Shown here one piece after another: positions 1,370-51,628 of a stretch of DNA of 64,000 nucleotides. The stretch spans positions 278-64,277 of the forward strand of contig PHCJ01000015.1 of NCBI GenBank assembly GCA_002842285.1. Reading direction: 5' to 3'. Position 1 is the first letter of the stretch; each line of letters begins with the position of its first letter. The translations under genes and the position numbers were made by a program. Origin of the DNA: Betaproteobacteria bacterium HGW-Betaproteobacteria-22. Its GTDB lineage: Bacteria; Pseudomonadota; Gammaproteobacteria; Burkholderiales; Methylophilaceae. The notes under the pieces are model-generated. The model worked only from the letters and a program-made list of their open reading frames with translations, was not told the origin of the DNA and searched no databases.

Positions 1370-1371
1370 CA

Positions 1372-3295: not shown

Positions 3296-3300
3296 TACAG

Positions 3301-3840: not shown

Positions 3841-3843
3841 AGT

Positions 3844-4776: not shown

Positions 4777-4798
4777 CTCCATCTTAGAGCATACTAAA

Positions 4799-36127: not shown

Positions 36128-36152
36128 GGGTCTTCGTAAAATAATGTGTATT
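36128..36152 (+). repeat. Terminal inverted repeat, transposase-distal end (GGGTCTTCGTAAAATAATGTGTATT)
   Basis: Matches the reverse complement of 51596-51620 at 22/25 positions. Confidence 0.92.
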
Positions 36153-36570
36153 TGAATTTTAAAACAATTTTTTATCTAACCTCAATATTGTGTATTTACT
36201 GCTTTTACTTATCTTACGTTTTAGTTTTAATTTTGTATAAAACTGCTTACTCTAAGATTAATTGACCACTAGTTCTTATTCATGCATATTTCACTATGGT
36301 CGCTTTGATGCATACTGATTTAGAGGTCAAATTAAACCTCAGTCAGTAACTTATTGATCATCAAAATTTATACAATGTCTGACCAAAATCATGCTTCCTG
36401 TACCTTAAAGTGAAGTGGCTGAGGGTGTCGAACAGGACTAACTGTTCGCTGGTGCGTCGTGTCAAGGCATGCCGCCGAATCCCTGGTCGTGATCCCTTCA
36501 GCCATTGGCAATGCGCCCATCGAACCGTTCGCGGGCGGCGACGACCTCGGGCTGGCAGTGCTCGGCCCAG

Positions 36571-37065
36571 GTCACTTACATCCGCACCAGTCAAGGCTGG
36601 TTATATTTAGCCATCGTACTGGATTTGTACTCAAGGCGTGTCGTGAGTTGGGCGTTTTCCAATCAACCTAATAGTGAATTAAGCGTACGTGCATTAGAAG
36701 TGGCTGTGCAACATCGCAGACCAAACCAGTCTGTTTTATTTCACAGTGACCAGGGTGTGCAATATTCCAGTGATACCTTTAGGAATGCGCTCAGCAAACA
36801 CAACATCACGGCGAGCATGAGCCGACGTGGTAATTGCCATGATAATGCGGTGACGGAGCGTTTCTTTAGAAGCTTGAAATCAGAAAGGGTTAACTATACA
36901 ATATAAAACACGAGATGAGGCGATGAAAGACATTGCTGAATATATTGAGCCGTTTTACAATCAAAGGCGTCGACACTCCACTTTAGGCAACATATCGCCT
37001 GCGGAGTACGAACAAAAGTATCAACAAAAACCTTAGCTTGTGTGGCAGATTGTTAGACCATTACA
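36571..37065 (+). pseudogene. IS3-family remnant: 3' part of OrfB integrase (frameshifted) plus right IR
   Basis: VTYIRTSQGWLYLA...FHSDQG...NAVTERFF; frameshift near 36900 to YKTRDEA...FYNQRRRHSTLG; IR 37040-37065 ending in CA. Confidence 0.88.
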
Positions 37066-37128
37066 AAAGACGTATGAGTATCATTTTTTTCTCTTTATCT
37101 CAACCTATTTCAACAGGAGTGACACATC

Positions 37129-38160
37129 ATGCATTACCGCCCACTTGGCAAATCCGGTCTGCTCGTTTCCGAGCTGTGTTTTGGCACTATGAGCTTTGGC
37201 CAGCAGGGCTACTGGGAGAAAATCGGCGGGCTTGACCAGTCTGCCGCCCAGCGCCTGGTCGATATCGCGCTGGATGCCGGCATCAATTTTTTCGACAGCG
37301 CCGATGTCTATTCCTACGGCCAGTCTGAGGAGATCCTCGGCAAGACGCTCAAGAGCAAGCGCGACAAGGTGGTGTTGGCCACCAAAGTGCGCGGACGCAT
37401 GAGCCAAGAGATCAACGACGTGGGCTTGAGTCGCCGCCACATCATTCAGAGCTGCGAGAACAGCCTCAGGCGTCTGGGCACAGATTATCTCGATCTCTAC
37501 ATAGTGCACAGCTTTGACTTCATGACGCCGTTGGAGGAAACGCTCTCGGCGCTGAACGACCTGGTGCATTCTGGCAAGGTGCGCTACTTGGGTTGTTCGA
37601 ACTACTTTGCGTGGCAACTGATGAAGGCGTTGTCCATCTCTGAGAGACACCATTGGGAGAAGTTCATTTCGCTGCAGGCTTATTACTCGCTGGTGTCGCG
37701 TGACGTGGAGATCGAACTCGCCCCGCTGTGCCGGGACCAGGGGCTGGGTATTACGCCGTGGTCGCCGCTGGGGGCGGGTTTTCTCACCGGCAAATACCCC
37801 CGTGGCGGCAAGGGCCCGCAGGACGCCCGGCGCAGTAAGGAGGATCACAATTTCATCCAGCTCGACGAGGACAAGGCCTACGCCATCCTGGACGAGGTGC
37901 AGCGCATCGCCAAGGCACGCGGCGTGAGTGCGGCGCAGGTCTCGCTCAACTATCTGCTGCGCAAGTCGCCAGTCAGCTCGGTGATCATCGGCGCCACCAA
38001 GCCCGAGCAGTTGCAGGACAACCTGAAGACTGTCGAGTGGCAGCTCTCGGCTGAGGAAGTCGCCGCACTTGATGAGATCAGCACACCGCCGCGACTGTAT
38101 CCACACTGGATGCTCGAGTTCACCCGCCTCGACCGCGACAACCCGGCCATGATCATGTAA
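37129..38160 (+). CDS. Aldo/keto reductase
   Basis: LCFGTMSFG, FFDSADVYS, LGTDYLDLY, WSPLGAGFL; AGGAG RBS; high GC. Confidence 0.93.
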   Translation: MHYRPLGKSGLLVSELCFGTMSFGQQGYWEKIGGLDQSAAQRLVDIALDAGINFFDSADVYSYGQSEEILGKTLKSKRDKVVLATKVRGRMSQEINDVGLSRRHIIQSCENSLRRLGTDYLDLYIVHSFDFMTPLEETLSALNDLVHSGKVRYLGCSNYFAWQLMKALSISERHHWEKFISLQAYYSLVSRDVEIELAPLCRDQGLGITPWSPLGAGFLTGKYPRGGKGPQDARRSKEDHNFIQLDEDKAYAILDEVQRIAKARGVSAAQVSLNYLLRKSPVSSVIIGATKPEQLQDNLKTVEWQLSAEEVAALDEISTPPRLYPHWMLEFTRLDRDNPAMIM

Positions 38161-38211
38161 TTGATCGGCGCCACTGTGGTGCAGATTGATGCACCCATCG
38201 AAGCGGATGCG

Positions 38212-38326
38212 GGCGGATTCGACTTTCAGCTTGAGCGTCGTCAATCTGCAAGGCGCCGAGACCGAAACCGGCGCCGATTACAACTCCATCAACCCCGGCG
38301 CCTATGTCTCTGCTTTGCAATTCGAT
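38212..38326 (+). pseudogene. Internal fragment of a glutathione S-transferase N-terminal domain (frameshifted)
   Basis: GFDFQLER then, after a 1-nt shift, VNLQGAETETGADYNSINPGAYVSALQFD; resembles the beta-class GST NPKGxVPAL region. Confidence 0.6.
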
Positions 38327-38345
38327 CGGCACAATAAGGAGAACG

Positions 38346-39143
38346 CTGCGCCAGCCCGCGCTGTTCATTCCCCACGGTGGCGGGCCCTGCTTCTTCATGG
38401 ACCGGGTCCCGCCCGACGCCTGGGCGCGGCATCGCACCTTTCTGGAAGGGCTGCCGGCCACCCTGCCCGAACGACCGCGCGCCCTGCTGGTGGTCTTGGC
38501 CAACTTGGAAGCGCCGCGGTTCACCGTGCAGAAGCAGGCCGCGCCGCCGCTGCTTTTTGACTATTCCGGGTTTCCGCCGCATACCTACGAGCTCACCTGG
38601 CCCGCGCCCTGCGTGCCCGAACTCTATGAGCGGGTGGCCGCACTGCTGGGCGCAGCGGGGCTGCCCTGCGGCTTCGATGCGGCGCGCGGCTTCGATCACG
38701 GCGTGTTCGTGTCGCTCAAGGTCGCCTTTCCGGCCGCCGACATCCCCTGCGTGCAGTTGTCGTTGCGAAGCGATCTCGACCCGGCCGCCCATCTGGCGGC
38801 GGGGCAGGCCCTGGCCCCGCTGCGCGACGAAGGTGTGCTGCTCGTCGGCTCCGGCAACAGCTACCACAACCTGGGGGTGATGATGCGCGCTTGGCGCATG
38901 GGTTCAACCGAGGCGCATGGTCTCGATTTCGACGCCTGGCTGAGCGAGGCGGTCAGCCATCCCGGCCCGACCGAGCGCAACCGGCGCCTGCTGGACTGGC
39001 TCCGCGCCCCCGGTGCTCGTGAGGCCGCGCCGCGCGAAGAGCACCTGATCCCGCTCCTGGTCGCTGCCGGCAGCGATAGCGGGGCGAAGATTTTCGAGGA
39101 CCGTGTGCTGGGCGCGGTGCAAAGCGCATTTCGCTTCGGCTGA
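38346..39143 (+). CDS. Extradiol ring-cleavage dioxygenase, LigB/DODA (YgiD)-like
   Basis: PALFIPHGGGP, RGFDHGVF, GSGNSYHNL, PREEHLIPL. AAGGAG points to CTG 38346; ORF track starts at ATG 38304. Confidence 0.85.
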   Translation: MRQPALFIPHGGGPCFFMDRVPPDAWARHRTFLEGLPATLPERPRALLVVLANLEAPRFTVQKQAAPPLLFDYSGFPPHTYELTWPAPCVPELYERVAALLGAAGLPCGFDAARGFDHGVFVSLKVAFPAADIPCVQLSLRSDLDPAAHLAAGQALAPLRDEGVLLVGSGNSYHNLGVMMRAWRMGSTEAHGLDFDAWLSEAVSHPGPTERNRRLLDWLRAPGAREAAPREEHLIPLLVAAGSDSGAKIFEDRVLGAVQSAFRFG

Positions 39144-39198
39144 ACGCAAGGGCGGCGCACCCTTTCGCCTTGCCATCCACACCACGGCGTGGCAGCGC

Positions 39199-40353
39199 TC
39201 AGCGCCGCACTACCAGCCCTGCCAGCGCAACCAGTGAGAACGCGGCGCCGGCGTAGAACGTCATCGAAGGACCTACCCACGTCCACAATCCGCCGGCAAT
39301 AACGCTGGCGGCGAGCAAGGCTGCGCCGCTCACCAGGTTGAACACGCCGAAGGCCGTGCCGCGAAGATCGGCCGGTGCGGCATCGGCGACCAGCGCCGAG
39401 AGCAGCCCTTGCGTTGCGCCCATGTGCAGGCCCCAGATCGCGGCACCCAGGCCGACCGCCCAGACGTTGGCGGCGAGCGCGAGAGTGATGTCGGCGGCGA
39501 TCAGAAACAGCACGCCCCAGACGAGCAGGCTGCGGCGGCTGCCGTTGTCGGAGAATTTGCCGAAGGGATAGGCGCTGGCCGCATAGACAACGTTCATCAC
39601 GATCAGGATCAGCGGCACCCAGGTCGCGGCGAGGCCCATGTTCTCGGCGCGCAGCAGCAGAAAGGCCTCGGAGAAGCGCGCCAGCGTCAGCACCGCGGCA
39701 AAGGCCACCACCCACCAGAAACGGCGGTCAAGCCGCGCGAGGCTGGCGCGGCTGATGGGAAACTGAGCCTTGGCTGCGGGGCGCGTGGCTTCGGGCTCCT
39801 CGACGCCGAACGCGATCAAGAGCACGCAAATGACGGCGGGCAGCACCGCAACCCAGAACACCAGGCGGAAATCGTCGTGGCTCGCCGCCATCAGACCCAT
39901 GGCGGCGAGCGGCCCGGCGAAGGCGCCCACAGTGTCCAGCGCCTGGCGCAGGCCGTAGGCCGCGCCGCGCTGCGCCTCAGGCGTCAAATCGGCGATCAGC
40001 GCATCGCGCGGGGCGCCGCGGATGCCCTTGCCGATGCGGTCGAGAAAGCGCGCCGCGAGCACCGCCGTGATCCCGGTGGCGAGCGGGAACAGCGGCTTGG
40101 TCAGCGCCGCCAGGCCATAGCCCAGCAGCAGCAGCGGTTTTCTGCGTCCGATCCAGTCGGAAATCACGCCGGAGAAGACCTTGGCAATCGAAGCCGTCGC
40201 CTCGGCGATGCCTTCGATGAAGCCGACCGACATCGCGGAAGCCCCCAGCACCGTCACCAGGAACACCGGCAGCAGGCTGTGGATCATCTCGGAGGAGAGG
40301 TCCATCGTCAGCGAGACGAGCCCCAGGGCGACGACACCGCGGGGAAGTTTCAT
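39199..40353 (-). CDS. MFS transporter
   Basis: SDWIGRRK and DRIGKGIRGAPRDALIAD motifs; about 12 TM helices. Confidence 0.9.
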   Translation of the reverse strand: MKLPRGVVALGLVSLTMDLSSEMIHSLLPVFLVTVLGASAMSVGFIEGIAEATASIAKVFSGVISDWIGRRKPLLLLGYGLAALTKPLFPLATGITAVLAARFLDRIGKGIRGAPRDALIADLTPEAQRGAAYGLRQALDTVGAFAGPLAAMGLMAASHDDFRLVFWVAVLPAVICVLLIAFGVEEPEATRPAAKAQFPISRASLARLDRRFWWVVAFAAVLTLARFSEAFLLLRAENMGLAATWVPLILIVMNVVYAASAYPFGKFSDNGSRRSLLVWGVLFLIAADITLALAANVWAVGLGAAIWGLHMGATQGLLSALVADAAPADLRGTAFGVFNLVSGAALLAASVIAGGLWTWVGPSMTFYAGAAFSLVALAGLVVRR

Positions 40354-40384
40354 GGGTCATTTCTCCTTGTTGTTGACCGTTGCC

Positions 40385-41515
40385 TCATGCCATCTGGCTG
40401 ATGCTCTTGCGGAAATGCAGCAGGGCACCCACGAAGAACACCAGGCCGATGACGGCCAGCGCCAGGAAATGCGGCCACACTACGTCGAAGCCCGCGCCGC
40501 GATAGAGGATGGCCTGGGCGGCGGCTACGAAATGGGTGGTGGGGGCGACCTCCATCACCTGCTGGGCGAGCAGCGGCATGCTCTCACGTGGTGTGGTGCC
40601 GCCGGAGAGCATTTGCATCGGCAGTAGCACCAGCATCATCAACAGGCCGAACTGCGGCATGCTGCGCGCCAGCGTCGCCATGAAAATGCCCATGGATGTG
40701 GTGGCGACGATGTGCAGGACCGCCATGGCGAGGAACAGCGCCACCGAGCCTTCGATCGGCACGGCGAGCGCCCCCTGCACGATGAAGTGCAGCGACAACG
40801 CCGTGGCCAGGAACACCACCAGCCCCATCGACCAGATCTTGCCCAGCATGATCTCGCCCGGAGTGACGGGCATCACCAGTAGGTGCTCGATGGTGCCGTG
40901 CTCGCGCTCGCGGATCACGGCCGCGCCAGCCAGGATGATGGAGATCATGGTGACCATGTTCATGATCTCCATCACCGAACCGAACCAGGTCTGGGTCAGG
41001 GCCGGGTTGAAGCGCATCCGCAGGGCAAGATCGACCGGCAGCGACGCACTGCTGCGGTAACGCTGCACGAATTCGTTGACCTCGCCGAGCACGATCTGCT
41101 GGGTATAGCCGCTGCCGGTGAAGGCCTGGCTCATGCGGGTGGCATCGACATTGAGCTGGATGATCGGGTTGCGTCCGGCCAGCACGTCGCGCTGGAAATT
41201 GGGCGGGATGTCGAGGGCAAAGGTGTACTCCCCCGCATCCAGCCCGGCATCGACCTCCGACAGCGTCACGCGAGCTGGTGGCATGAATTGGGGGGGATGG
41301 AAGGCCGAGATGATGCGGGCCGACAGGGGCGAGTCATCCTCATCGACAATGGCGATGGGCACCTTGTGCAAGGAGTCTGGCATGGCCGTGGCCGCCACGT
41401 AGATCATGAATGTGAAGCCCCAGACGATGAGCATCAGCATGATCGGATCGCGCGCCAGGCTCCACAGTTCCTTGATACCGAGGCGGTAGACGTTGGAGAG
41501 ATGGCGCATGGTCAC
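40385..41515 (-). CDS. yhhJ: ABC-2 permease, YhhJ-like
   Basis: [27 protein letters not shown]. Confidence 0.85.
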
Positions 41516-44307
41516 TTCTCCTGCTTTTTGAGTAAGGCGATGGAAACCCCCAGCATGACCAGCGCGCCCAAGCCGATCGGCAGCAGATAGCCGGCCAGAT
41601 CGGACAGCCCCAGGGCCTTGTTGAAGACCCCCCGGCTGACGATGATGTAGTAGGTGGTGGGGTTGATCTCCCCGATCACCCGGCCCATGCCTTCGAGCGC
41701 CGAGACCGGGTTGATCATACCGGCGAACTGAATGGCGGGCAGCATCGAGCCCATGGCGGCAAAGAACATGGCCGCGATCTGGCTGCGCGTGAAAATCGAT
41801 GCCAGCAGGCCGAAGCCCGTGGCGTAAGTGACATACAGCAGCGTGGCCAGCAGCAGCGCGATAAAGCTGCCTTTGATCGGCACTTCGAACAGGGTCACGG
41901 CCAAGAGGCTCATCAGCAGGAAATTCAGCAGCGCCAGCACGATATAAGGCAGTTGCTTGCCGATCATGAATTCGGCGCGGGTGACCGGGGTGACATAGAG
42001 GTTGATGATCGACCCCAGCTCTTTTTCTCGTACCACCGACAAGGCGGATAGGATGGCTGGGATCATCAGCAGCAGCATGGGAATGACGGCCGGCACCATG
42101 GAGGGCAGGCTTTTGACATCGGGGTTGTAGCGAAAGCGCGTCTCAACGGTGGCGGAGCCGGTCGACAGGTCACGACCATAACGAGTCTTGGCGATGTCCT
42201 GCAGCCACCCCTGATGCATGCCCTGCACATAGCCTTTCACCGTTTCGGCACGCTGCGGCATGGCCCCGTCGATCCAGGCGCCGATCTGAACCGGCTTGCC
42301 GCGCGCCACGTCTCGCGCGAACCCGGACGGGATCTCGATGGCCAGGCTGAGCTCGCCGCTTCGCATGCGCCGGTCGAGGTCCGCATAGTCGGCAATGGGC
42401 GGGCGTTCGACGAAATAGCGCGAACCCGAGAGATTGAGGGCATAGTTCTGGCTCAGGCCGGTTTGGTCGCGGTCGAGCACGGCATAGGAGAGATCGTTGA
42501 CATCCATGGTGATGCCGTAGCCCATGATGAGCATCAGGAGCAGGCTGCCGAACAGCGCCATCACCAGACGTACCGGGTCGCGACGCAGTTCCTTGCCTTC
42601 GCGCAGGGTGTAGCTGAGGGTGCGCGCTAAGCTGAACGGGCTGCGCCGTACAGGCGTCGAAGGCCTGCCCATCGGCAGGCTCGGCGGCGGCTCCGCCCGA
42701 GCCACCAGTGCCGTCTCGCCAGCGCCGACTTTGACGGCTTCGCCATCGGCCTCCTGCAGATAGGCGATGAACGCCTCTTCCAGGGTGCTTACCCCGCGCT
42801 TTTCGATCAACGCGCCTGGCGCATCGCTGGCCAGCACCCGCCCCTCGTGCATCAGGGAAATGCGGTCGCAGCGCTCGGCCTCGTTCATGAAGTGGGTCGA
42901 AACGAAGATCGTCACCTTGTCCTGGCGCGACAGATCGATCAGCAATCGCCAGAAGGCGTCGCGCGCCACCGGGTCCACGCCCGAGGTCGGCTCATCGAGG
43001 ATCAGCAACTCCGGCCCATGCACCAGCGCCACCGCCAGCGACAGGCGCTGGCGCATGCCCAGCGGCAGCCGCTCGGGCAGTGCATCGGACACGCCGTCCA
43101 GCCCGAAACGCGCCAGCAGCTCGCGCACCCGTGCGGGAATCGCGGCCTGCGGCACGCCAAAGAGGCGCGCATGCAGCACCAGGTTCTGTTCGACGGTCAG
43201 CTCCGTATAGAGCGAGAACGCCTGCGACATGTAGCCGACCCGCCGCCGTGTGGCGATGTCGCGCGCATCCACCTTGTGGCCGAACAGCCAGGCCTCGCCC
43301 GCCGAGGGCGGCAAGAGACCGGTGAGCATCTTCATGGTGGTGGTCTTGCCGCTGCCGTTGGAGCCGAGAAAGCCGAAGATCTCGCCGCGGTGGATGCGGA
43401 AATCCACATGATCGACGGCCGTGAAATCGCCGAAACGCATGGTCAGCCCGCGCGCCTCGATGGCGATGTCCTCGCCATCGACAAACGGCGGAACCACGAC
43501 GGCATGGTGGCCGCGCCGCTTCTCTTCCGGCAGCAGGGCGATGAAGGCGGCCTCCAGCGTGGCGGTGCCGGTGCGCGCGTGCAGCTGCGCGGGCGAGCCG
43601 GTGGCGAGCACCCGGCCCGCGTCCATCGCCACCAGCCAGTCGAAGCGTTCGGCCTCCTCCATGTACGCGGTGGCCACGATCACGCTCATGCCGGGGCGGT
43701 TTTGGCGAATGCGGTTGATCAGCGACCAGAACTGCAGGCGCGCCAGCGGATCGACGCCGGTGGTGGGCTCGTCCAGAATCAAGAGCTCCGGGTCGTGGAT
43801 CAGGGCGCAGCACAGGCCGAGCTTTTGTTTCATGCCGCCGGAGAGCTTGCCCGCAGGACGGTCGAGGAAGGGGTACAAGCCGGTGGCCCGGGTCAGCTCG
43901 TCGATGCGCCGGCGACGCTCGACCGCGTTGTGGCCGAACAACCGGGCAAAGAACTGCAGGTTATCCTCCACCGACAGCGCCGGATAGAGGTTCTTGCCCA
44001 GACCCTGCGGCATGTAGGCGATCGCCGGACACACCTGGTTGCGGTGTGCTGCTCGGCGCATGTCGCCGCCGAGTACCTGCACCTGCCCCTGTTGCACCGC
44101 GCGCGCACCAGCCATCAGCGCCAGCAAGCTGGACTTGCCGACGCCATCCGGGCCGATCAGTCCGACCATGCAGCCGGCGGGAATGTCAAGGGTAATACCG
44201 TCCAGCGCCACGGTCTTGCCGTAGCGCAAACTAAGGTCTGCAAGGCGGGCGATTGGCACGGCAATGGCCTGGGCACTGATCGAGGCGCCCTGTGCGGCCG
44301 GTGTCAT
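41512..44307 (-). CDS. rbbA: RbbA-like ABC protein (two NBDs plus ABC-2 permease)
   Basis: [20 protein letters not shown] and [15 protein letters not shown]; C-terminal permease REKELGS. Confidence 0.88.
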
Positions 44308-45377
44308 TCAGGCACCTTCACCGCCAGATGCTGCGGCCACTGCGCCTGCGGGTCAATTTTAAGCCAGGCCACACCGGGCAGGCCGGTCTTGACCTGCTTC
44401 AGATGCTTTTGCAGCAGTTCTGGGTCGATGCGGGCCTTCACCCGGAACATCAGCTTTTGCCGCTCGCTGGCGGTCTCCACCGTCTTGGGCGTGAACTGCG
44501 CCACGCTGGCGACGAACGACACCTTCGCCGGAATCACATACTGGGGCGCAGCATCGAGCACGATGCGCACCTCGCCGCTCAGCGCCACCTTTCCGACCGC
44601 CGTCTCCGGCAGGAAGAAGGTCATGTAGACGTCGGAAAGGTCGATCATGTTGAGCACCTTGCCGCCGCCGCCGAGAACTTCGCCAGGCTGTGCCACACGG
44701 TACTGCACACGGCCATCGCGCGGCGCCTTGAGTTGGCTGTCCTGAATGTCCGCCTCGATGCGGGCGATGGTGGCGGCCAGGGCCGTGACGGTGGACTGGG
44801 CGCCGGTGACTTGGGCCTTCGCTGCGGCGATGGCCGACCGGCTGGCTGCCACCTGAGCCCGCGCCGCGGCCAGCGCGGCCTCCATATTGCGCACCGCCGC
44901 CCGGTCGTCATCGAGCTGCTGGGCGGAGGCCGCACCCTCCTTGGTCAGGGTCTCGGAGCGCGCCAAGCGCCGCCGGGCGTTCTCCAGCTCGCTTTCGCGC
45001 TGCACCACCACGGCCTGGACCACGGCCAGATCGCTCTCGCGCATCTTGACCTGCGCCTCGGCGCCGGCTACCGCATGTAGCGCCTGCTGCTGCTGGGCTC
45101 GCGCCTCGTCGCGCTGGGCATTGAGCACGTCGGTCTGCATGCGCGCCAGCACCTGGCCGACGGTGACGAAGTCGCCCTCCTGCACCAGGATTTCGGTGAC
45201 CCGTCCGGCATATTTGGTGGCCACGTCAATCTCGGTGGCTTCGATGCGGCCATTGCCGCTGATCAGGCCCGCATCCTGGCCGTTGGCGCGGAGATTATCC
45301 CACGCGGTCCAGGCAGCTATGGCGATGAGGAGGCCTGCCGCGGCAAAAATCAACATCTTCTTGAGGTTCGTTGTCAT
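44304..45377 (-). CDS. yhiI: HlyD-family periplasmic adaptor, YhiI-like
   Basis: [19 protein letters not shown]; probable ATG at 45377 (MTTNLKK). Confidence 0.85.
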
Positions 45378-45385
45378 CTTTTTTC

Positions 45386-46891
45386 TCACTTTCCATGATT
45401 CGGTCGAACGGGCGACGCCGGCGATGCGGCAATGTCCTGGCTGCCCCCGCCCAACGCGGCGTACAGGCGCACCTGGCTGGAGAGCAGGGCACGGCGCGCC
45501 TGCACCCACTGCTGCTCGGCGCTGAGCAGGTCGCGCTGCGCGTCCAGCCATTCGAAATAGGGGGCGCTGCCGTTGTCGTAGCGCAGCTTTACCAGGCGCG
45601 CGCGTTCGGCCTGCGCCTTGAGGGTGGCCTCGGCAATGCGCACCTGCTCGGCGAGCCACTGGCGCGCCGACATGGCGTCGGACACGTCGCGGAAGGCCGC
45701 CTGCACGCTCTTTTCGTAATTCACCACGGCCAGATTCCGGCGCACCTCGGCCAGTTCCAACGCGGCCTGGTTGCGTCCGGCATCGAAGATCGGCAGTGTG
45801 AGGCTGGGCGCAAAGCGCCAGGCCTTGCTTCCGGCATCAAACAGGCCGGACAGCTCGGTGCTGGCGGTGCCGAAGGAGCCGGTCAGCGTGATGCGCGGAA
45901 AGAAAGCGGCGCGCGCTGCGCCGATATTGGCGCCGGCCGCGCGCAACTGATGTTCGCTGGCCACGATGTCGGGGCGCTGCAGCAGCACCTCGGCAGGCAG
46001 GCCGACGGGCAGGTCCTGCGGCACGGCCCGGTCGTCAAGCTTTGCCGTTTGCAGGCCTTCGGGCAGCGGCGCGCCCAGGAGCAACGTCAGCGCATGGGCC
46101 TGCGCGGCGCGCGCCTGTTCGAGCTGGGACACCAGCGCACGGGCCTGTTGCAGCAGCGTCTCCACCTGCACCACTTCCATGCGGGCAATCGCCCCCACTT
46201 CGAAGCGCCGGGTGAAGATGCGCAAGGATTCCTCGCGGCTGGCGACGGTCTGGCGCGCCAGTGCGAGGCGCTCGTCCAGTTCCAGCAGACCGAACCAGGC
46301 ATCCGCCACCTGGGCGATCAGGCTCACCGTGACAGCGCGCCGTGCCTCGTCGGTGGCGAGATAATTTTCCAGCGCCGCCTCCTTGAGGTTCTTCACCCGC
46401 CCCCAGAAATCGAGCTCCCAGGCGGCCAGCCCCACACCGACCTGATACTGTTCAGCGGTCAGCGCCCGGCCAGTCGGGCTGAGGTCGGCCGGCGTGCGCG
46501 AGCGGCTGCCATCGGCGCCCACCGCCACGGTCGGGAACTGGTCGGCGCGCTGGATGCCATAGGCCGCCCGCGCTTCCTCAACGCGCAGCACCGCCGTCTG
46601 CAAATCGCGGTTGTTGGCCAAGGCCTGCGCAATCAGCGCCTTGAGTTGCGGATCGGCGAAGTAGTCGCGCCAGGCGATCTCCGGCGCAAGGCGTCCCACA
46701 GACGCCCCACCGGGCGACACCCCGGTATCGACCGGGTAGTTCGCGGGGATCGGTAGCGGCGGGGTTTCATGGCGGGGTGCCAGCGAGCAGCCGCTCACGG
46801 CCAGGACGCCGGCAAGCGCGCATAGGGCCACCCTGTCGAGCCGTCGATACGCGCGTGGCGCGCCGCCTACCCTGTTGGAAGCCTTCCTCAT
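45386..46891 (-). CDS. Outer-membrane efflux factor lipoprotein (NodT/OprM family)
   Basis: Lipobox VSGC; [33 protein letters not shown]. Confidence 0.92.
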
Positions 46892-46930
46892 GTCGTTATC
46901 CTCATATTTCCATTTTTCCATTCTAATTCA

Positions 46931-48124
46931 TCAGCGAACGATTGAAAACCCGATCCGCACCTGTGTGCCACGGTCCAGGTTGTAATCGACTAAAGTCTCG
47001 CCATACCCCTTGAACAGCTGGAAATGCAGGAAGCCGCCAGTGCGGGCGAACAACGGGCGGCGCAAGGGCCAAGACAGGTCGAGCTGTGCGCTGCCCTTGC
47101 CGGACGTGCCGGTGCGCAGCTGTGCCAACGCTACCATGCCGTCCTCCCGGCCATAGCGCAGTTTCCAGTCCGCGTAGCCCCGATAGCGCTGGATGTCCGG
47201 ATTGTCTGCCTTGTCCAGGTAGCCATAGAAATTGGGCGCGAAGATCAAACTGCGTCCGTCGCCGAATTCCGTGCTCCAGACCGGCTGCACGAACAGCGTG
47301 TTGATGCTGCGCGAATTGGCGCCGTCCTTGCCGTTCGATTCGTGCTCGTAGCCGCCGCGCAACAGGTCGGGCATCAGCCCCTGGTCAGGCATCGCGCCCT
47401 GCCAGAACAGACTCGGCCGGTAGCTGGTGTCGCGAAACGGCGCCGAGTCCGCCCCCAGATCCCAGAGCGAAGTCTGCGTATAGCCGAAATGCAACCCGGC
47501 CAGGGGCGTAAACCACTCGACGGGCAGGCTGTCCGGATCGAACAGCCGATACTTGAAGCTGAACTGAAAGCGGGCGGTGGTATGGCTGCCGACGACGAAA
47601 TACATCGGCTCGTTGGCCGACAGCGCCGGTTCGTTCGGCGGGAACAGCAACGCACGGCCGGGAGCGGGCTGAGCCGCCGCTGTCTCGGCCTCGGCCGAGC
47701 GCATGCGTTCAATCGCATCCGGGGCGCCGACCAGCAAGGCCAGCCGGTTCGATGCGGCGCCGGCCAGTACCGCTCGCACCAGCCCGGAGAGATCGACCGG
47801 CAACACGCCGTGATAGGTCCGGCGCGTGTCCTCTGGCGTGGTCGGGCTGGCTGCGGCCAGCGTCACTTCCTGCGTCCTGCCATCGCGCGATAGCTTCAGT
47901 TGGAATGTTTCCGGCCAATCCGCCTGCGCGGCGGGTTTGACGATATCGAGCTGGAGCGTCGCGCCGGCCTGCGCCGTCTCGTCGGGGGTGGCGATCAGCC
48001 AGTTTGGTGCCGCCGCGGCGGGCGGCGCGGCAAACCACAGCAGGATGCCCAGCACCACCGCTGCCATCGCGCAAAAGCCAACCTGCAGCGTCTTGATCAA
48101 TCGCTCGAATGTCATGTTACGCAT
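46931..48124 (-). CDS. pldA: Outer-membrane phospholipase A with N-terminal extension
   Basis: FQFSFK, GYTQTSLW, GYEHESNG catalytic motif, GYGETLVDYN. Confidence 0.85.
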   Translation of the reverse strand: MRNMTFERLIKTLQVGFCAMAAVVLGILLWFAAPPAAAAPNWLIATPDETAQAGATLQLDIVKPAAQADWPETFQLKLSRDGRTQEVTLAAASPTTPEDTRRTYHGVLPVDLSGLVRAVLAGAASNRLALLVGAPDAIERMRSAEAETAAAQPAPGRALLFPPNEPALSANEPMYFVVGSHTTARFQFSFKYRLFDPDSLPVEWFTPLAGLHFGYTQTSLWDLGADSAPFRDTSYRPSLFWQGAMPDQGLMPDLLRGGYEHESNGKDGANSRSINTLFVQPVWSTEFGDGRSLIFAPNFYGYLDKADNPDIQRYRGYADWKLRYGREDGMVALAQLRTGTSGKGSAQLDLSWPLRRPLFARTGGFLHFQLFKGYGETLVDYNLDRGTQVRIGFSIVR

Positions 48125-48605
48125 CCGCAGGCGTTCCTGTCCAGCCGGTCGGCTGCCCGGCCGCGCTGCGGTAGCCGATCTCGATGATTTCCTCGGCGCG
48201 GTCGAATTCCATGAAGCGCACCGCGCCCAACGGCGGCTGGATGAGGATGTCCGGCTTGTCGTGGCGCAGGGTGGCCTGGGTGATGCGCGCCTGCATGATG
48301 TAGAGCGAAGCCAGCAGCACGCCGATGATGCCCGGCAGCGGTTCCTGGTGCGGCCATGCGCTGACCTGGGCCAGGGCTGTCATTCGTTGAAAATCGACGT
48401 ATGGCAAAATCTTCGCTTCGACCAAGTCCAGCACGCGTTTTTGGTTGCCGGTTTGAATTTCCTTGTCAGCTTTGGCAAAATCCAGCGCTTCTTGACTGAT
48501 CCGCTTTACCAACGCGTCTGGAGCCTCCTGTGCGACGGAATGCTGCGCAAGTGCCATTCCCCCGAACATCAAAATAAGCACAAATATTTTTCGCAGAATG
48601 TTCAT
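48117..48605 (-). pseudogene. In-frame chimera: MlaC/Ttg2D N-terminal fragment fused to a patatin (RssA-like) C-terminal fragment
   Basis: APDALVKRIS...ILPYVDFQRMTALA joined near 48369 to ...KPDILIQPPLG...FMEFDRAEEIIEIG; GC rises across the junction. Confidence 0.7.
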
Positions 48606-48706
48606 TTTTTGTCTTTCTGGATAAGGATTAAGGAGCGCCCATGTTGATTTCTCAACAAACGAATCCGCTGGTGTCGGCATGGCGCACGTAGATTAGTCCA
48701 TCGCCG

Positions 48707-48844
48707 CAGGCGCGCTGTCAGAAAACCGGTCAGGGGCATGAAGATCGCCGCCGCGACGATATAGGAGGTCAATACCCAGGAAATCTGATCCTGGGTCGCG
48801 CCCATTCTCCCCTGCATGTGCGGCAACGCCACGTTGGTGATGGT
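48707..48844 (-). pseudogene. Fragment of a DHA2 (EmrB/QacA) efflux MFS gene
   Basis: TITNVALPHMQG...QDQISWVLTSYIVAAAIFMPLTGFL. Confidence 0.8.
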
Positions 48845-49110
48845 GGCTTGCCGGTCGTTAGCATAGGGCCGGCGTTCCACCAATTCCGCTTCGCCAACTC
48901 GTCGATTAGGCGGGCGAGCGTTATGGGCTGAACTTCCGGCATGTCTGCCAAATCGGCCTGGCGGACGCCCTCATTGCGAGAGACGTAAACGAGCGCACGC
49001 GCCTGAGTTAGTGTGAGAGAACTTCCTTCCAGTCGCTGCTTGAAGGCCTTCCGCATCAACCGGGAAACATCCGCCACGAGAAAACCGAGACTGTCTTGCC
49101 GCAATTCCAT
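48845..49110 (-). pseudogene. MarR-family regulator, frameshifted and 3'-truncated
   Basis: LGFLVADVSRLMR...QPITLARLIDEL; frameshift near 48885 to LVERRPYANDRQA, then joined to the emrB fragment. Confidence 0.8.
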
Positions 49111-49125
49111 AGCGCGCCATCAATG

Positions 49126-49170
49126 TAATAAGCATTGCTTATTATAAGTCTAGTTTACCAAAACTATCAA
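49126..49170 (-). promoter_or_regulatory. marR promoter (TTGATA-18-TATAAT) overlapped by a 19-bp palindromic operator TAATAAGCA-T-TGCTTATTA (49126-49144)
   Basis: Perfect 9-1-9 dyad 16 bp upstream of the marR start, overlapping the -10 box. Confidence 0.7.
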
Positions 49171-49195
49171 GAGGGCAGCGTGTAGAAGGTGTCTG

Positions 49196-49255
49196 TCAGA
49201 ATGAGCTATACCTCTCACCAATCATGGCATCGTCTTCTACTAACAGTAGTCTCAT
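49196..49255 (-). pseudogene. First 14 codons of an OmpR/QseB-type response regulator (MRLLLVEDDAMIGE), then stop
   Basis: Manual translation of the minus strand; classic receiver-domain N-terminus, too short for the ORF track. Confidence 0.65.
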
Positions 49256-49447
49256 AAATCTTTTTTATCCGTAAACAAATGAAGTAATTTCAACGTCGAA
49301 AACTAAACTAGCCGTTGGTTCATCTGATATATAATCAGGGTATTATATAAAGACTTAACAAAAACTTAAGAATAGAGGTGCCCAATAGTTTAAATGGTCT
49401 GTATCCATTAGAATCAATAGTCAGTTTAAATAATAATTGGCTGTCAA

Positions 49448-49475
49448 CTAGCTATATTAATACTCGTATAGCTAG
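49448..49475 (-). terminator. Hairpin at the transposase stop codon
   Basis: CTAGCTATA-N10-TATAGCTAG; no clear U tract. Confidence 0.4.
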
Positions 49476-50812
49476 ATCTCACCACGTTCGATCATCGCTA
49501 CTAATTTATCAATATCCACACCATAGTTCTTAGGTTCTTCTTTTGGTTGTGCTGATGGGGGTAAATCATTCAACGTTGCATATCCCATAAATGCAACGTC
49601 ATATTGAGCCTCACGACGATCAAACTTCGGTCTATTCTGTACGATCTTATGTGAGCCTCTGGAGAACAATATTTTTGCTCGCAACGCTTCAAATGAATAA
49701 CCTCGGCCAAGACGGTTTAGCACCCTGATGAGGCTATTCAATGATTCGGTATAAGCATTGGTGATTGGGTGATTAAAGTATTCCAGAATGTATGGCTGCC
49801 AATTAGACCATGCAGTGATGATAGGCTCATAATGTCCACGCAACTCTGCTGGAATGCTCTTTAGCCATTGTTCATAGAGCATTTGAGCCTGTTGTTTGGA
49901 TGGCGCCTGATAGATGTTAAAGAATTCTTCCTTTAATCTGTACCCTTCACCAAGTAATGGGTAATTCTTAGTCCATCCGTCCAGATTGAAATTCTCCTGG
50001 TCAGTCAATTGACTTTGACGGCGTAGCAATACAAAACGATCATGCATCAGGCCACGACGTTGCTTAGGTGACAGTTCCGCACGCAATGACTTTCTAACAC
50101 TTTCCATCGCGACATTCGCCATACGCACGACATGGAACTTGTCCACTACGACTTTAGCATCTGGTATTACTTCATTCACAGCTTCACGATAAGGGCGCCA
50201 CATGTCCATTGCCACATATTGCACAGTATCTCGATCTTTTAGACTAGATAGATAGGTGGCAATAGTTTTCTTGTTTCTGTTCGGTAATAGATTAATCGCA
50301 GTGTTGTTATGCAGATTAGAGATCACAGCACGAGGCTTCTTTATGATGTGAATTTCATCAATGCCCATCCACTTCGGTGTTTCAAACTTGACGGTGCGCT
50401 CCAGTTCGTTCACGTAATCGCTGAACACGTTACGAATAGTTCCTTCAGTGACACCAATTTCTTCAGCAATGCCCGTGAAGGTATTGGTCATCGAGCGTTG
50501 GCCAATCCATTTCACTAAACGCTCAGTCATCCAGCGACTGGCATTAACCTCTGGTAAATGTTCCATGAAGGTTTTACCGCAGGATTTGCATTTAAAGCGT
50601 CTGGCATCGACGTAGATGCCCACGCGCTTGCCGTGCATGGGGAGATCATGCACCAGCACTTCTACACGGCCATATCCGACAACCTCACGACTACGGCAAT
50701 TAGAACATATCGTTACAGGTACTGCAGTCTCAGCCTTAATGTGGTAGTCATGCTCAGATTCATTACTGCCAAGGACCTTATAGGCAGTCAGGTTCAGTAC
50801 ATTGCGATGCAT
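49472..50812 (-). CDS. ISL3-family transposase (intact)
   Basis: Zn finger CSNC/CKSC, VHDLP, GIDE, AMDMW, DKFH, TNAYTESLN; 446 aa. Confidence 0.93.
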   Translation of the reverse strand: MHRNVLNLTAYKVLGSNESEHDYHIKAETAVPVTICSNCRSREVVGYGRVEVLVHDLPMHGKRVGIYVDARRFKCKSCGKTFMEHLPEVNASRWMTERLVKWIGQRSMTNTFTGIAEEIGVTEGTIRNVFSDYVNELERTVKFETPKWMGIDEIHIIKKPRAVISNLHNNTAINLLPNRNKKTIATYLSSLKDRDTVQYVAMDMWRPYREAVNEVIPDAKVVVDKFHVVRMANVAMESVRKSLRAELSPKQRRGLMHDRFVLLRRQSQLTDQENFNLDGWTKNYPLLGEGYRLKEEFFNIYQAPSKQQAQMLYEQWLKSIPAELRGHYEPIITAWSNWQPYILEYFNHPITNAYTESLNSLIRVLNRLGRGYSFEALRAKILFSRGSHKIVQNRPKFDRREAQYDVAFMGYATLNDLPPSAQPKEEPKNYGVDIDKLVAMIERGEI

Positions 50813-51198
50813 TACGATTTAAACTGAGAGCTGGATTGTTGAACAAGTTGTTGTAGAACATCCTTGGTTTGTTGTTCTAATTCAGGCAGATCGTACTTTA
50901 TTGTTTTCCAGACGATTTCCAAGTCCACTTTAAAGTACCCGTGGGCAACGGCATTACGCATTTCGTAAGCAAAAACTAACGGTAACTCTGGGTGTAATTG
51001 AGCGAAGTCTTGATAGTATTTATCTATGTTGTTACTGGCTTCACCAATGACCTCGATATTGCGAATTACTGCATCTTGCACCAACTCATTGTTCAAAAAT
51101 CCCACTTCATCTATGTCTTCGGTGTAGTGATGAATGCGTTGAGTAGCTTGAATGATGTGCGCTAGATAATCCTGTAATCTTTGTTGATCACGGCTCAT
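50812..51198 (-). CDS. HEPN/DUF86 (HepT-like) toxin RNase
   Basis: QDAVIRNIEVIGEA and R-X4-H motif RNAVAH followed by GY. Confidence 0.9.
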   Translation of the reverse strand: MSRDQQRLQDYLAHIIQATQRIHHYTEDIDEVGFLNNELVQDAVIRNIEVIGEASNNIDKYYQDFAQLHPELPLVFAYEMRNAVAHGYFKVDLEIVWKTIKYDLPELEQQTKDVLQQLVQQSSSQFKS

Positions 51199-51485
51199 AT
51201 GGGGATTGCCTCGGCTAGTACACTGTTGCGGAATGAATCTGGCAGCGCTTTGGGAGTTAGTACATCTACTGGCACACCCAGCAATACACGTAGTTTGTAT
51301 CGAATTGCGCCAATATCCATCAGTGTAGTGTCTTGCGTAGGGTCAATCAGAATGTCGAGGTCACTGGTTTCAGTATCGTCACCATGAAGTACCGAGCCAA
51401 ATACACGTGCATTTAAGGCGCGGTGTGACTTAACCACTTGGCGGATAGCTTCTCGGTTGGAATTTAAGGCGTCAGAGGGCTTCAT
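51195..51485 (-). CDS. Minimal nucleotidyltransferase (MNT/MntA-like) antitoxin
   Basis: VFGSVLHGDDTETSDLDIL (GS-x10-DxD), VDVLT; 96 aa. Confidence 0.9.
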   Translation of the reverse strand: MKPSDALNSNREAIRQVVKSHRALNARVFGSVLHGDDTETSDLDILIDPTQDTTLMDIGAIRYKLRVLLGVPVDVLTPKALPDSFRNSVLAEAIPI

Positions 51486-51517
51486 TTATTTTACTCGTCC
51501 ACACAACTTTACGAATT

Positions 51518-51546
51518 ATAATATAGTTAGCAACATTGTATGTCAA
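51518..51546 (-). promoter_or_regulatory. Sigma70 promoter of the MNT-HEPN-transposase operon (TTGACA-17-TATTAT)
   Basis: Plus-strand TGTCAA at 51541-51546 and ATAATA at 51518-51523, 17-bp spacer. Confidence 0.75.
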
Positions 51547-51595
51547 CATGATTTTACGAATTTTAACTATTGAGCAATGTTACGTAAAATTAGAC

Positions 51596-51620
51596 AATAC
51601 ACAAAATTTTACGAATACCC
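51596..51620 (-). repeat. Terminal inverted repeat, transposase-proximal end (GGGTATTCGTAAAATTTTGTGTATT on the minus strand)
   Basis: 22/25 match to 36128-36152. Confidence 0.92.
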
Positions 51621-51628
51621 GATATTTT
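51621..51628 (+). repeat. Target-site duplication, right copy (GATATTTT)
   Basis: Identical to 36120-36127. Confidence 0.93.

What the first reader, a model, noticed from the sequence alone, without database searches (positions are those of the whole stretch)
49472..51485. MNT-HEPN toxin-antitoxin translationally coupled to the ISL3 transposase: a possible TA-gated transposon
Seen: MNT (51485-51195), HEPN (51198-50812) and transposase (50812-49472) form one operon reading inward from the TIR. The MNT stop overlaps the HEPN start (ATGA), and the HEPN stop shares a base with the transposase start (TAATG). The HEPN has R-X4-H (RNAVAH) followed by GY. Established: MntA-type antitoxins neutralise HepT-type RNases by AMPylating a Tyr next to this motif. 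Inference: the module could both addict the host to the element and tie transposase synthesis to TA expression or stress. I am not aware of a characterised ISL3 element with this architecture, but could not search.
Basis: partly seen in the sequence, partly recalled or inferred. Interest (0 to 1): 0.85.

Follow-up and report, generated by a model that had tools for sequence, protein, structure and literature searches.

The report
Toxin-antitoxin cargo in ISL3 transposon
The three overlapping genes are real and form the working end of a 15.5 kb jumping-gene element that carries a toxin-antitoxin pair, but related elements carry many other kinds of 'selfish' cargo in the same slot, so this is a new variant of a known kind of element.

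Summary
mntA (51485-51195), hepT (51198-50812) and an ISL3 transposase gene (50812-49472) lie on the minus strand with ATGA and TAATG overlaps. They follow a near-consensus promoter just inside an ISL3 terminal repeat.

The element is not a 2 kb IS. It is a 15,493 bp transposon (36128-51620) with an 8 bp target duplication (GATATTTT). It sits in sdhD, and removing it restores an intact sdhD.

The triplet is conserved, not a one-off. All three genes are under strong purifying selection (dN/dS 0.02-0.06 at dS about 1), and MNT-HEPN pairs from at least six separate branches sit upstream of ISL3 transposases.

The coupling is not specific to toxin-antitoxin cargo. In about 40 relatives with clear ends, a Fic, AbiEii, restriction-modification, PIN-like or other gene fills the same slot. 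Its stop codon usually abuts a transposase start that lacks a ribosome-binding site.

The left end has a conserved three-site layout. Two copies of the terminal-repeat core bracket the promoter and co-vary with the repeat, which suggests repression by the transposase.

Named ISL3 elements with upstream cargo already exist (ISPpu12, ISKpn25), as do toxin-antitoxin pairs in Tn3 transposons. I rate this a new variant of a known kind. "TA gating" is untested.

The parts
36120..36127 (.). Target-site duplication, copy 1 (GATATTTT), inside sdhD
   Evidence: Identical 8-mer at 51621-51628. Removing 36128-51628 restores an intact 115-aa SdhD ORF.
36128..36165 (+). IRR, the terminal inverted repeat distal to the transposase gene: GGGTCTTCGTAAAATAATGTGTATTTGAATTTTAAAAC
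   Evidence: 22 of the first 25 nt are identical to IRL. It is 94.7% identical over 38 nt to the IRR of the related element L081, which lies about 116 nt after that element's tnp stop.
36166..49211 (.). About 13 kb of foreign, mostly 63-70% GC mosaic cargo between tnp and IRR. It holds an IS3 rve fragment, an aldo-keto reductase, a LigB-type dioxygenase, an MFS transporter, an RbbA-type ABC efflux system with HlyD adaptor and OEP outer-membrane protein, phospholipase A1, and truncated MlaC, EmrB-like and MarR fragments.
   Evidence: Composition; Pfam. The best plasmid match is 80.8% identity to a Thauera humireducens plasmid.
49212..49471 (-). 260 nt downstream of tnp that is shared with Methylotenera locus L001. 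It includes the first ~17 codons of a response-regulator gene (ATG at 49255).
   Evidence: blastn of L001 against the window: 98.3% identity over 49212-51620; alignment.
49472..50812 (-). ISL3-family transposase gene (446 aa). Its ATG shares one base with the hepT stop (TAATG), and no Shine-Dalgarno sequence precedes it.
   Evidence: NCBIfam NF033550 scores 284 bits against a cut-off of 180.
50812..51198 (-). hepT-like HEPN RNase toxin gene (128 aa; R81, H86, Y88)
   Evidence: PF01934 at 6e-25. A profile of the family matches S. oneidensis HepT 5YEP_B at 5e-6 with the RNxxxHxY motif aligned. dN/dS is 0.047.
51195..51485 (-). mntA-like minimal nucleotidyltransferase antitoxin gene (96 aa; GSx10DxD). 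Its stop overlaps the hepT start (ATGA).
   Evidence: PF01909. Matches PDB 1WOT at 8e-16. Invariant motif columns. dN/dS is 0.015-0.06.
51496..51517 (-). Site 3: an internal copy of the IR core (AATTCGTAAAGTTGTGTGGACG) that starts immediately after the -10 hexamer
   Evidence: The same position (+100/+102 from the IR core) is occupied in 30 of 31 relatives.
51518..51546 (-). Sigma-70-type promoter TTGACA-17 nt-TATTAT (11 of 12 consensus positions), about 33 nt upstream of the mntA ATG
   Evidence: Both hexamers are conserved in L002 even though the spacer has several substitutions.
51541..51562 (-). Site 2: an internal copy of the IR core (AATTCGTAAAATCATGTTGACA). Its 3' end is the -35 hexamer.
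   Evidence: The same position (+55/+56) is occupied in 30 of 31 relatives.
51583..51620 (-). IRL, the terminal inverted repeat proximal to mntA (GGGTATTCGTAAAATTTTGTGTATTGTCTAATTTTACG). It contains site 1.
51621..51628 (.). Target-site duplication, copy 2 (GATATTTT)

Best explanation
The three genes are the left-end operon of an ISL3-family transposon that carries passenger genes (a 'transporter IS').

Shown by the sequence:
- The element spans 36128-51620 and is bounded by ISL3-type inverted repeats and an 8 bp target duplication in sdhD.
- Just inside IRL, a near-consensus promoter is bracketed by two further copies of the IR core motif.
- mntA, hepT and tnp follow with overlapping stop and start codons, and tnp has no ribosome-binding site of its own.

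Shown by comparison:
- This ISL3 subgroup has a conserved cargo slot between that promoter and tnp.
- The slot holds MNT-HEPN pairs of several origins, or Fic, AbiEii, restriction-modification, PIN-like and other genes.
- The last cargo ORF usually ends within a few bases of the tnp ATG.

Inferred mechanism:
1. One transcript from the IRL promoter encodes cargo plus transposase.
2. The transposase is translated mainly by termination-reinitiation at TAATG, so it is made at a low level relative to the TA proteins.
3. The transposase, which must recognise the IR core at the element's tip, also binds sites 2 and 3 and represses the promoter. Cargo and transposase would then share one negative feedback loop. 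MntA, a 96-aa nucleotidyltransferase with no DNA-binding domain detected, is unlikely to autoregulate.
4. MntA keeps HepT inactive by AMPylating Tyr88 next to the Rx4H catalytic motif.
5. The pair benefits the element as a stabilisation (addiction) and/or phage-defence module, like the other cargo types found in this slot. It is not a dedicated switch for transposition.
For: - Anatomy.
- Element ends, target duplication and restored sdhD.
- Two assemblies agree at 100% identity across both junctions.
- The triplet occurs in relatives with the same overlaps.
- Purifying selection on all three genes (dN/dS 0.015-0.06 at dS about 1).
- Complete elements with IRs enclosing MNT-HEPN, further ORFs and tnp: L046 and L058 and Aeromonas caviae IncP plasmid pKAM339_2, which has the 8-bp duplication GGAATTTC.
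- Cargo slot: IRL lies 0.4-3 kb upstream of tnp in all 40 relatives with clear IRs. 31 of the 40 carry a Fic, HEPN/MNT, AbiEii, DUF6036 NTase, RM, PIN-like or VapD/Cas2-like gene.
- Three-site left end: the two best matches to each element's own IR core lie at +56 and +102 in 30 of 31 relatives, 3-8 SD above shuffled sequence. The motif changes with the IR type (TTCGTAAA, CCGGATTT or CCGNTTT..GTGATTGA).
- tnp has no Shine-Dalgarno sequence in any clade, whereas the first cargo gene does in most elements shown (weak in the window's own mntA).
- HepT/MntA motifs align with the characterised S. oneidensis system. AMPylation chemistry: Songailiene et al. 2020, cited in PMC12548467.
Against: - No expression, binding or toxicity data exist. 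Transposase binding to sites 2 and 3 is inferred from sequence covariation only.
- The three sites could instead be an extended transposase-binding end needed for synapsis, with no regulatory role.
- NCBIfam equivalog models for MntA and HepT score below their cut-offs (32 and 43.5 bits against 60), so the biochemistry is extrapolated from distant relatives.
- Post-segregational killing is less obvious for a toxin that is covalently inactivated.
- In the window clade the junction sequence TTTAAATCGTAATG is more conserved than neighbouring synonymous sites. This could reflect a TA-specific constraint that I have not explained.
- The cargo census rests on one genome per species, and on IRs found by a simple blast heuristic.
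Confidence: 0.6

Rival explanations
1. TA-gated transposon. The TA module specifically controls transposition. Transposase is made only when hepT is translated, and activation of HepT RNase or stress-dependent TA expression switches transposition on or off.
For: The stop/start overlap and the missing Shine-Dalgarno sequence make tnp translation dependent on hepT translation. The junction TTTAAATCGTAATG is nearly invariant in the window clade despite dS of about 1. An IS lineage with 82-88% identical transposases carries an MNT-HEPN pair from a different branch (L003, L078), as if this kind of module were specifically retained.
Against: The same abutting junction occurs with Fic, RM, AbiEii, PIN-like and unknown cargo, so the coupling belongs to the IS subgroup and not to the TA. 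Elements such as L046, L058, L035 and pKAM339_2 have 1-5 other ORFs between hepT and tnp. Most homologous MNT-HEPN pairs are not next to an ISL3 transposase gene.
Confidence: 0.15
2. Host-beneficial defence cargo. The MNT-HEPN pair is mainly an abortive-infection or anti-phage module, and the IS spreads because it delivers defence. This is compatible with the best explanation as one of the two proposed benefits.
For: The MNT protein matches PADLOC candidate defence family PDC-S09 at 6e-28. Sister elements carry RM systems and AbiEii in the same slot.
Against: HepT has no PADLOC match. No phage data exist. Fic and PIN-like TA cargo are not established defence genes.
Confidence: 0.25
3. Chance adjacency or assembly artefact. 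An IS landed next to a resident chromosomal TA locus, or the contig is chimeric.
For: There is a sharp GC jump (about 43% to 65%) only 330 nt downstream of tnp, and several truncated gene fragments lie there.
Against: IRL lies upstream of mntA, not between hepT and tnp. The target duplication and the exact restoration of sdhD show the whole unit inserted as one piece. The same triplet occurs in other genomic contexts. Two assemblies are 100% identical across the junctions.
Confidence: 0.02
4. A programmed -1 frameshift at the conserved TTTAAAT just before the hepT stop makes a HepT-transposase fusion protein, as in IS1 and IS3 OrfAB.
For: A -1 slip at AAA (50820-50818) enters the tnp frame two codons before its ATG. 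The heptamer is conserved in WIN, L001, L002, L078 and L081.
Against: The heptamer is out of phase for a canonical X XXY YYZ slip. No stimulatory RNA structure was found (z = -1.0). Other clades lack the motif but keep the junction.
Confidence: 0.03

Closest known systems
ISL3-family insertion sequences with passenger genes (transporter IS): ISPpu12, ISKpn25, ISPst2
   Same: They have an ISL3 DDE transposase, GG(G/C)T-type terminal repeats and 8-bp AT-rich target duplications. Passenger genes lie inside the IRs, upstream of and co-directional with tnp. In ISPpu12 the order is czcD-lspA-tnp with a 21-nt gap. In ISKpn25 a type I restriction gene ends 4 nt before tnp. ISKpn25 (8,154 bp) has been caught transposing as a unit with 8-bp duplications (PMC8768599). 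ISPpu12 carries a promoter thought to be constitutive and forms composite transposons (PMC3735179). ISPst2 has the IR GGGTATCCGGAATTT... and two passenger genes (PMC6305408).
   Different: The cargo here is a type VII-like MNT-HEPN toxin-antitoxin pair. None of the named elements I could check carries one. The transposase is only 37-39% identical to those of ISPpu12 and ISKpn25. In addition, 13 kb of unrelated DNA lies between tnp and IRR, making a 15.5 kb unit.
Toxin-antitoxin pairs embedded in the transposition module of Tn3-family transposons (Lima-Mendez et al. 2020, PMC7157771), including the single HEPN-MNT case TnSod9
   Same: A TA pair sits next to the transposase gene rather than among ordinary passenger genes. 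It is proposed to be expressed from the transposon's own regulatory region and to stabilise the element. The TA pairs were acquired several times independently.
   Different: The transposon family and mechanism differ. Tn3 elements have a TnpA of about 1000 aa, a resolvase and a res site. Here there is a 446-aa ISL3 transposase and no resolvase. In Tn3 the TA lies next to res; here it lies between an IR-embedded promoter and tnp, with overlapping codons.
HepT/MntA type VII toxin-antitoxin system of Shewanella oneidensis (PDB 5YEP, 6M6U, 7AER) and Aphanizomenon HEPN/MNT (7AE9)
   Same: The antitoxin gene comes first in an overlapping two-gene operon. HepT has the Rx4HxY motif and MNT has GSx10DxD. 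A profile of the window's family aligns the motif to 5YEP_B at E = 5e-6.
   Different: The relationship is distant. phmmer finds no PDB hit for HepT alone, and both proteins score below the NCBIfam equivalog cut-offs. MntA here is a 96-aa minimal enzyme most similar to Thermus 1WOT. The operon has a third, transposase cistron, and its promoter belongs to the IS.

Membership tests
ISL3 family transposable element | DDE transposase of the ISL3 type with an N-terminal zinc ribbon and HTH | tested here: met
   PF01610 at 4.5e-60, PF14690 at 9.5e-12, PF13542 at 4.3e-8. NCBIfam NF033550 scores 284 bits against a cut-off of 180.
ISL3 family transposable element | Imperfect terminal inverted repeats | tested here: met
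   IRL at 51620 and IRR at 36128 share 22 of their first 25 nt. IRR is 94.7% identical to the IRR of relative L081.
ISL3 family transposable element | 8-bp target-site duplication, AT-rich target | tested here: met
   GATATTTT is present on both sides, and excision in silico restores sdhD. 8-bp duplications are reported for ISPpu12 and ISKpn25.
ISL3 family transposable element | Demonstrated transposition activity | not testable with these tools
   Only indirect evidence: intact ORFs, a perfect target duplication, and a 98-99% identical copy in a different flank (L001).
Transporter IS (IS carrying passenger genes within its IRs) | Non-transposition genes located between the two IRs and mobilised with the transposase gene | tested here: met
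   mntA, hepT and about 13 kb of further genes lie inside the IRs and target duplication. Complete relatives with IRs enclosing MNT-HEPN are shown.
Type VII HepT/MntA toxin-antitoxin | HepT-like HEPN toxin with the Rx4HxY catalytic/AMPylation motif | tested here: met
   PF01934 at 6e-25. R81, H86 and Y88 are conserved in all intact homologues. The motif aligns to 5YEP_B.
Type VII HepT/MntA toxin-antitoxin | MNT nucleotidyltransferase antitoxin with GSx10DxD, encoded upstream and overlapping the toxin gene | tested here: met
   PF01909. G30, S31, D42 and D44 are invariant. The ATGA overlap is conserved in the relatives whose ORFs are intact.
Type VII HepT/MntA toxin-antitoxin | Equivalog-level similarity to the characterised MntA and HepT (NCBIfam NF047752, NF047751) | tested here: not met
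   32.1 and 43.5 bits against cut-offs of 60. The pair is a family-level relative, not an equivalog.
Type VII HepT/MntA toxin-antitoxin | Toxicity of HepT and its neutralisation by MntA-catalysed AMPylation | not testable with these tools
   Needs expression and rescue assays plus mass spectrometry.
Tn3-family transposons with TA in the transposition module | Tn3-type TnpA (about 1000 aa), 38-40 bp IRs, resolvase and res site | tested here: not met
   The transposase is 446 aa and of ISL3 type. No resolvase domain was found among the main ORFs of the element that were scanned. The resemblance is an analogy only.

The most novel reading that the evidence does not exclude
A whole subgroup of ISL3 elements acts as a dedicated vehicle for addiction and defence modules (TA, Fic, AbiE, RM). 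These modules are plugged into a standard slot whose promoter is operated by the transposase itself through two IR-like operators. In the MNT-HEPN version the transposase would take over the missing autoregulatory role of the antitoxin. That would make a three-protein circuit (transposase repressor, enzyme antitoxin, RNase toxin) in which transposase level, toxin level and element retention are linked.
Probability: 0.25. Interest if true: 0.7.

Novelty: new variant of a known kind. Interest (0 to 1): 0.5.

Why it matters
If the inferred circuit is real, it extends the idea that toxin-antitoxin pairs are part of the transposition module. So far that idea rests on Tn3-family transposons. This would add a second, unrelated and very widespread transposon family with a different layout: an IR-embedded promoter, a cargo slot, and a translationally coupled transposase gene.

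It also gives a simple, testable model for how small IS elements pick up, express and exchange addiction and defence modules. Such elements occur on conjugative plasmids of clinical bacteria; examples are the Aeromonas caviae IncP plasmid found here and ISKpn25 in Klebsiella.

For genome annotation, it shows that MNT/DUF86 pairs next to ISL3 transposase genes should be annotated as part of the mobile element. Here the element has also captured 13 kb of high-GC efflux genes and has knocked out sdhD in a Methylotenera-like host.

Tried and rejected
- I first took GGGTATTATATAAAGAC at 49339 to be the right end of a 2.3 kb IS. I rejected this because it has no target duplication. L001 shares sequence 127 nt beyond it, and the true IRR at 36128 matches the IRR of L081.
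- Megablast of the 2.4 kb unit against PLSDB plasmids found nothing. Protein-level search was needed.
- An exact search for the IR motif in the first 80 loci found nothing, because the relatives' IRs differ by 1-2 bases.
- phmmer of HepT against PDB sequences found nothing. A profile of 8 homologues was needed.
- The RNA fold of the hepT-tnp junction showed no significant structure (z = -1.0), so I make no claim that the tnp start is sequestered.
- Rfam and tRNA scans found nothing in or near the element.
- Nine of the ten allowed full-text literature searches were run, seven of them aimed at TA, HEPN/MNT or passenger cargo in ISL3 elements. None found a description of this architecture. The original ISPpu12 paper (PMC135414) is not held.
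- I did not attempt structure prediction. Alignments built from fetched loci are not accepted by that tool, and a single-sequence model would add little beyond the profile match.
- I considered co-divergence of the TA pair and the transposase and rejected it. ISL3-linked TA pairs are scattered across the MNT-HEPN tree, and close transposases carry distant TA pairs. The tree is a quick neighbour-joining tree with no support values.
Full report
**Observation**

Pfam assigns them to NTP_transf_2 (4.5e-10), HepT-like (6e-25) and DDE_Tnp_ISL3 (4.5e-60), the last with the ISL3 zinc ribbon and HTH. NCBIfam's ISL3 transposase model is passed at 284 bits against a cut-off of 180.

The ATGA and TAATG overlaps can be read directly. 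HepT carries R81-x4-H86-x-Y88 and MNT carries G30-S31-x10-D42-x-D44. These columns are invariant in all intact homologues. A profile of the family aligns the motif to the characterised Shewanella oneidensis HepT (5YEP_B, E = 5e-6), and MNT matches the Thermus minimal nucleotidyltransferase 1WOT (8e-16). Both proteins fall below NCBIfam's equivalog cut-offs for MntA and HepT. They are therefore family members but not close orthologues of the studied system.

**What the element really is**

The window is about 45% GC, with a 63-70% GC block from about 37 to 49 kb. Upstream, sdhC is followed by an sdhD that breaks off at 36127. The rest of sdhD resumes at 51629, just before sdhA.

At 36128 the plus strand reads GGGTCTTCGTAAAATAATGTGTATT. 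At 51620 the minus strand reads GGGTATTCGTAAAATTTTGTGTATT. Both are flanked by GATATTTT. Deleting 36128-51628 in silico gives an uninterrupted 115-aa SdhD.

The repeat at 36128 is a genuine right end of this IS lineage. It is 94.7% identical to the repeat that lies about 116 nt after the tnp stop in a related metagenomic element whose transposase is 93% identical (L081). So the mntA-hepT-tnp unit is the left end of a 15,493 bp ISL3-bounded transposon.

About 13 kb of foreign DNA has accumulated between tnp and its IRR. It includes an RbbA-type ABC efflux cluster with adaptor and outer-membrane protein, phospholipase A1, an MFS transporter, a LigB-type dioxygenase, an aldo-keto reductase, an IS3 fragment and several truncated genes. 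Its best match is a Thauera plasmid at 80.8% identity.

The first 260 nt after tnp are shared with a Methylotenera MAG locus (L001; 98.3% identity over 49212-51620) that has a different left flank. Two public assemblies are 100% identical to the window across the junctions, so the structure is not an assembly chimera.

**Is the triplet conserved?**

A scan of one genome per species with the transposase returned 80 loci. The closest are from Methylotenera and other Methylophilaceae (82-99% identity). All of these carry MNT-HEPN immediately upstream of tnp. L001 and L002 have the identical ATGA and TAATG overlaps.

Two copies are decayed. L006 has broken hepT and tnp. L078 has the same defects and also a deletion between IR site 1 and site 3 that removes the promoter.

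More distant transposases (55-60% identity) also have MNT-HEPN upstream. In L011 and L073 it is directly adjacent. In L035, L046 and L058 it is followed by one to two further ORFs before tnp. L046 and L058 have clean IRs enclosing everything. A complete 4.6 kb example with the 8-bp duplication GGAATTTC sits on an Aeromonas caviae IncP plasmid, with the gene order nucleotidyltransferase, DUF86, five ORFs, tnp.

Between the window and L002 or L081, synonymous divergence is about 1. Over that distance dN/dS is 0.015-0.06 for mntA, 0.047 for hepT and 0.03-0.055 for tnp. All three genes have therefore been kept functional together.

**Is the link specific to the toxin-antitoxin pair?**

No. I scanned metagenomes with a HepT alignment. 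Of about 38 homologous MNT-HEPN loci with at least 1.5 kb of downstream sequence, only three had an ISL3 transposase gene downstream, plus a fourth, partial case (L160) on a shorter contig.

In a neighbour-joining tree of concatenated MNT+HEPN, the ISL3-linked pairs fall in at least six separate places. L003 and L078 have transposases 82-88% identical to the window's, yet they carry a pair from a different branch. This points to repeated capture or exchange.

Conversely, in the 40 relatives where I could find clear IRs, IRL always lies 0.4-3 kb upstream of tnp, and the interval is filled with co-directional ORFs. Pfam identifies the following:
- Fic family proteins, also annotated as such on Thauera plasmid pTX1
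- a second, unrelated MNT + HEPN (PF05168) pair
- AbiEii toxins
- DUF6036 nucleotidyltransferases
- two kinds of restriction-modification system
- a DUF433/PIN-like pair
- a VapD/Cas2-like protein

31 of the 40 loci carry at least one such gene. In about half of them the last cargo ORF ends within 0-8 nt of the tnp ATG. No clade shows a Shine-Dalgarno sequence before tnp, whereas the first cargo gene in most of the elements examined has one; the window's own mntA has only a weak match.

The named elements ISPpu12 (czcD-lspA-tnp) and ISKpn25 (type I restriction gene ending 4 nt before tnp) have the same general layout. ISKpn25 has been seen to transpose as an 8,154 bp unit with 8-bp duplications (PMC8768599).

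**A conserved three-site left end**

In the window the IR core TATTCGTAAAAT recurs twice further in. The first recurrence is at 51562-51541, where its 3' end forms the -35 hexamer TTGACA. The second is at 51517-51496, starting immediately after the -10 hexamer TATTAT.

The promoter matches the consensus at 11 of 12 positions. It is the only good promoter-like site on this strand upstream of tnp.

In 30 of 31 relatives, the two best matches to each element's own IR core lie at +56 and +102 from the IR core. The spacing is 46 nt, or 56 nt in one IR type. Scores are 3-8 SD above shuffled sequence. The repeated motif changes together with the terminal repeat: TTCGTAAA, CCGGATTT, or CCGNTTT...GTGATTGA.

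The simplest reading is that whatever binds the IR tip, presumably the transposase, also binds on either side of the promoter. This is an inference from covariation. It has not been shown.

**Most likely mechanism**

Shown:
- There is one promoter inside the left end.
- Three cistrons have overlapping stops and starts.
- tnp has no ribosome-binding site of its own.
- The transposon has an intact target duplication.

Inferred:
- Transposase is translated by reinitiation after hepT, and so at a low level.
- Transposase represses the shared promoter through sites 2 and 3.
- MntA AMPylates HepT Tyr88. The chemistry is established for relatives (Songailiene et al. 2020 and the S. oneidensis structures, cited in PMC12548467 and found).
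- The pair serves the element as an addiction and/or defence module, as do the other cargo types in the same slot.

The comparison does not support it, because unrelated cargo shows the same junction. It is not excluded either. The junction TTTAAATCGTAATG is unusually conserved in the window clade.

**Comparison with what is known, and novelty**

ISL3 elements with passenger genes are known: ISPpu12, ISPst2 and ISKpn25. Toxin-antitoxin pairs embedded in the transposition module are known for Tn3-family transposons, including one HEPN-MNT case (PMC7157771). TADB 3.0 reports type VII TA loci as associated with IS and transposons (via PMC12548467).

I found no paper describing an MNT-HEPN pair inside an ISL3 element. 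I also found none describing the cargo slot or the three-site promoter architecture. ISfinder and TnPedia could not be consulted.

I therefore rate the finding a new variant of a known kind. It is real, conserved and mechanistically suggestive, but it has clear conceptual precedents.

Noticed in passing
window 35935-36127 and 51629-51783: sdhD, the membrane anchor subunit of succinate dehydrogenase, is split by the 15.5 kb transposon. This separates sdhC and the 5' part of sdhD from sdhAB in what looks like a Methylotenera-like (Methylophilaceae) genome.
   Followed up: yes
window 36166-49211: A 13 kb, 63-70% GC mosaic sits inside the transposon in a 45% GC host. It holds an RbbA-type ABC efflux system with HlyD adaptor and OEP, phospholipase A1, an MFS transporter, a LigB-type dioxygenase and an aldo-keto reductase. 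The best plasmid match is 80.8% identity to Thauera humireducens.
   Followed up: partly
window 48117-49255: A chain of truncated gene fragments marks several recombination junctions. They are a low-GC MlaC N-terminus fused to high-GC sequence, an EmrB-like fragment, a MarR fragment, and the first ~17 codons of a response-regulator gene.
   Followed up: partly
window 36505-36906: An IS3-family integrase-core (rve) fragment with no intact transposase gene lies near the IRR end of the transposon.
   Followed up: no
window 50812-50825 (minus strand): The heptamer TTTAAAT just before the hepT stop is conserved in the window clade. A -1 slip there would enter the tnp frame and fuse HepT to the transposase. 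The heptamer is out of phase for a canonical slippery site, and no structure was found nearby.
   Followed up: partly
window 49339-49398 and 49448-49471: Two IR-like sequences lie downstream of tnp. GGGTATT plus a subterminal CAATAGTTTAAAT is at 49339. A 24-nt inverted match (79%) to the -10/site 3 region lies right after the tnp stop. They may be vestiges of earlier right ends. Neither has a target duplication.
   Followed up: partly
L078 3078-5142: In this decayed copy, IR site 1 is joined directly to site 3, which deletes the promoter. Both hepT and tnp carry frameshifts. This fits the idea that expression of the whole operon depends on that promoter.
   Followed up: partly
L011 3394-4019: In this copy mntA is intact, but in hepT the catalytic His is replaced by Gln and the C-terminus is scrambled. 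The toxin has decayed before the antitoxin.
   Followed up: no
L163 (NZ_AP024942.1, Aeromonas caviae IncP plasmid pKAM339_2) about 327-4953: A complete 4.6 kb ISL3 element with the duplication GGAATTTC. It carries a nucleotidyltransferase, a DUF86 (HepT) gene, five more ORFs and tnp as one co-directional block on a conjugative plasmid. The record annotates the genes individually and does not mark an element.
   Followed up: partly
L013/L015/L026 and L161 (Thauera pTX1): A recurrent 4.4 kb ISL3 element carries a Fic-family gene followed by DUF551 and five small phage-like ORFs, all upstream of tnp.
   Followed up: no
window 119-194: tRNA-Val (TAC). This is the only RNA gene detected in the window.
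   Followed up: no
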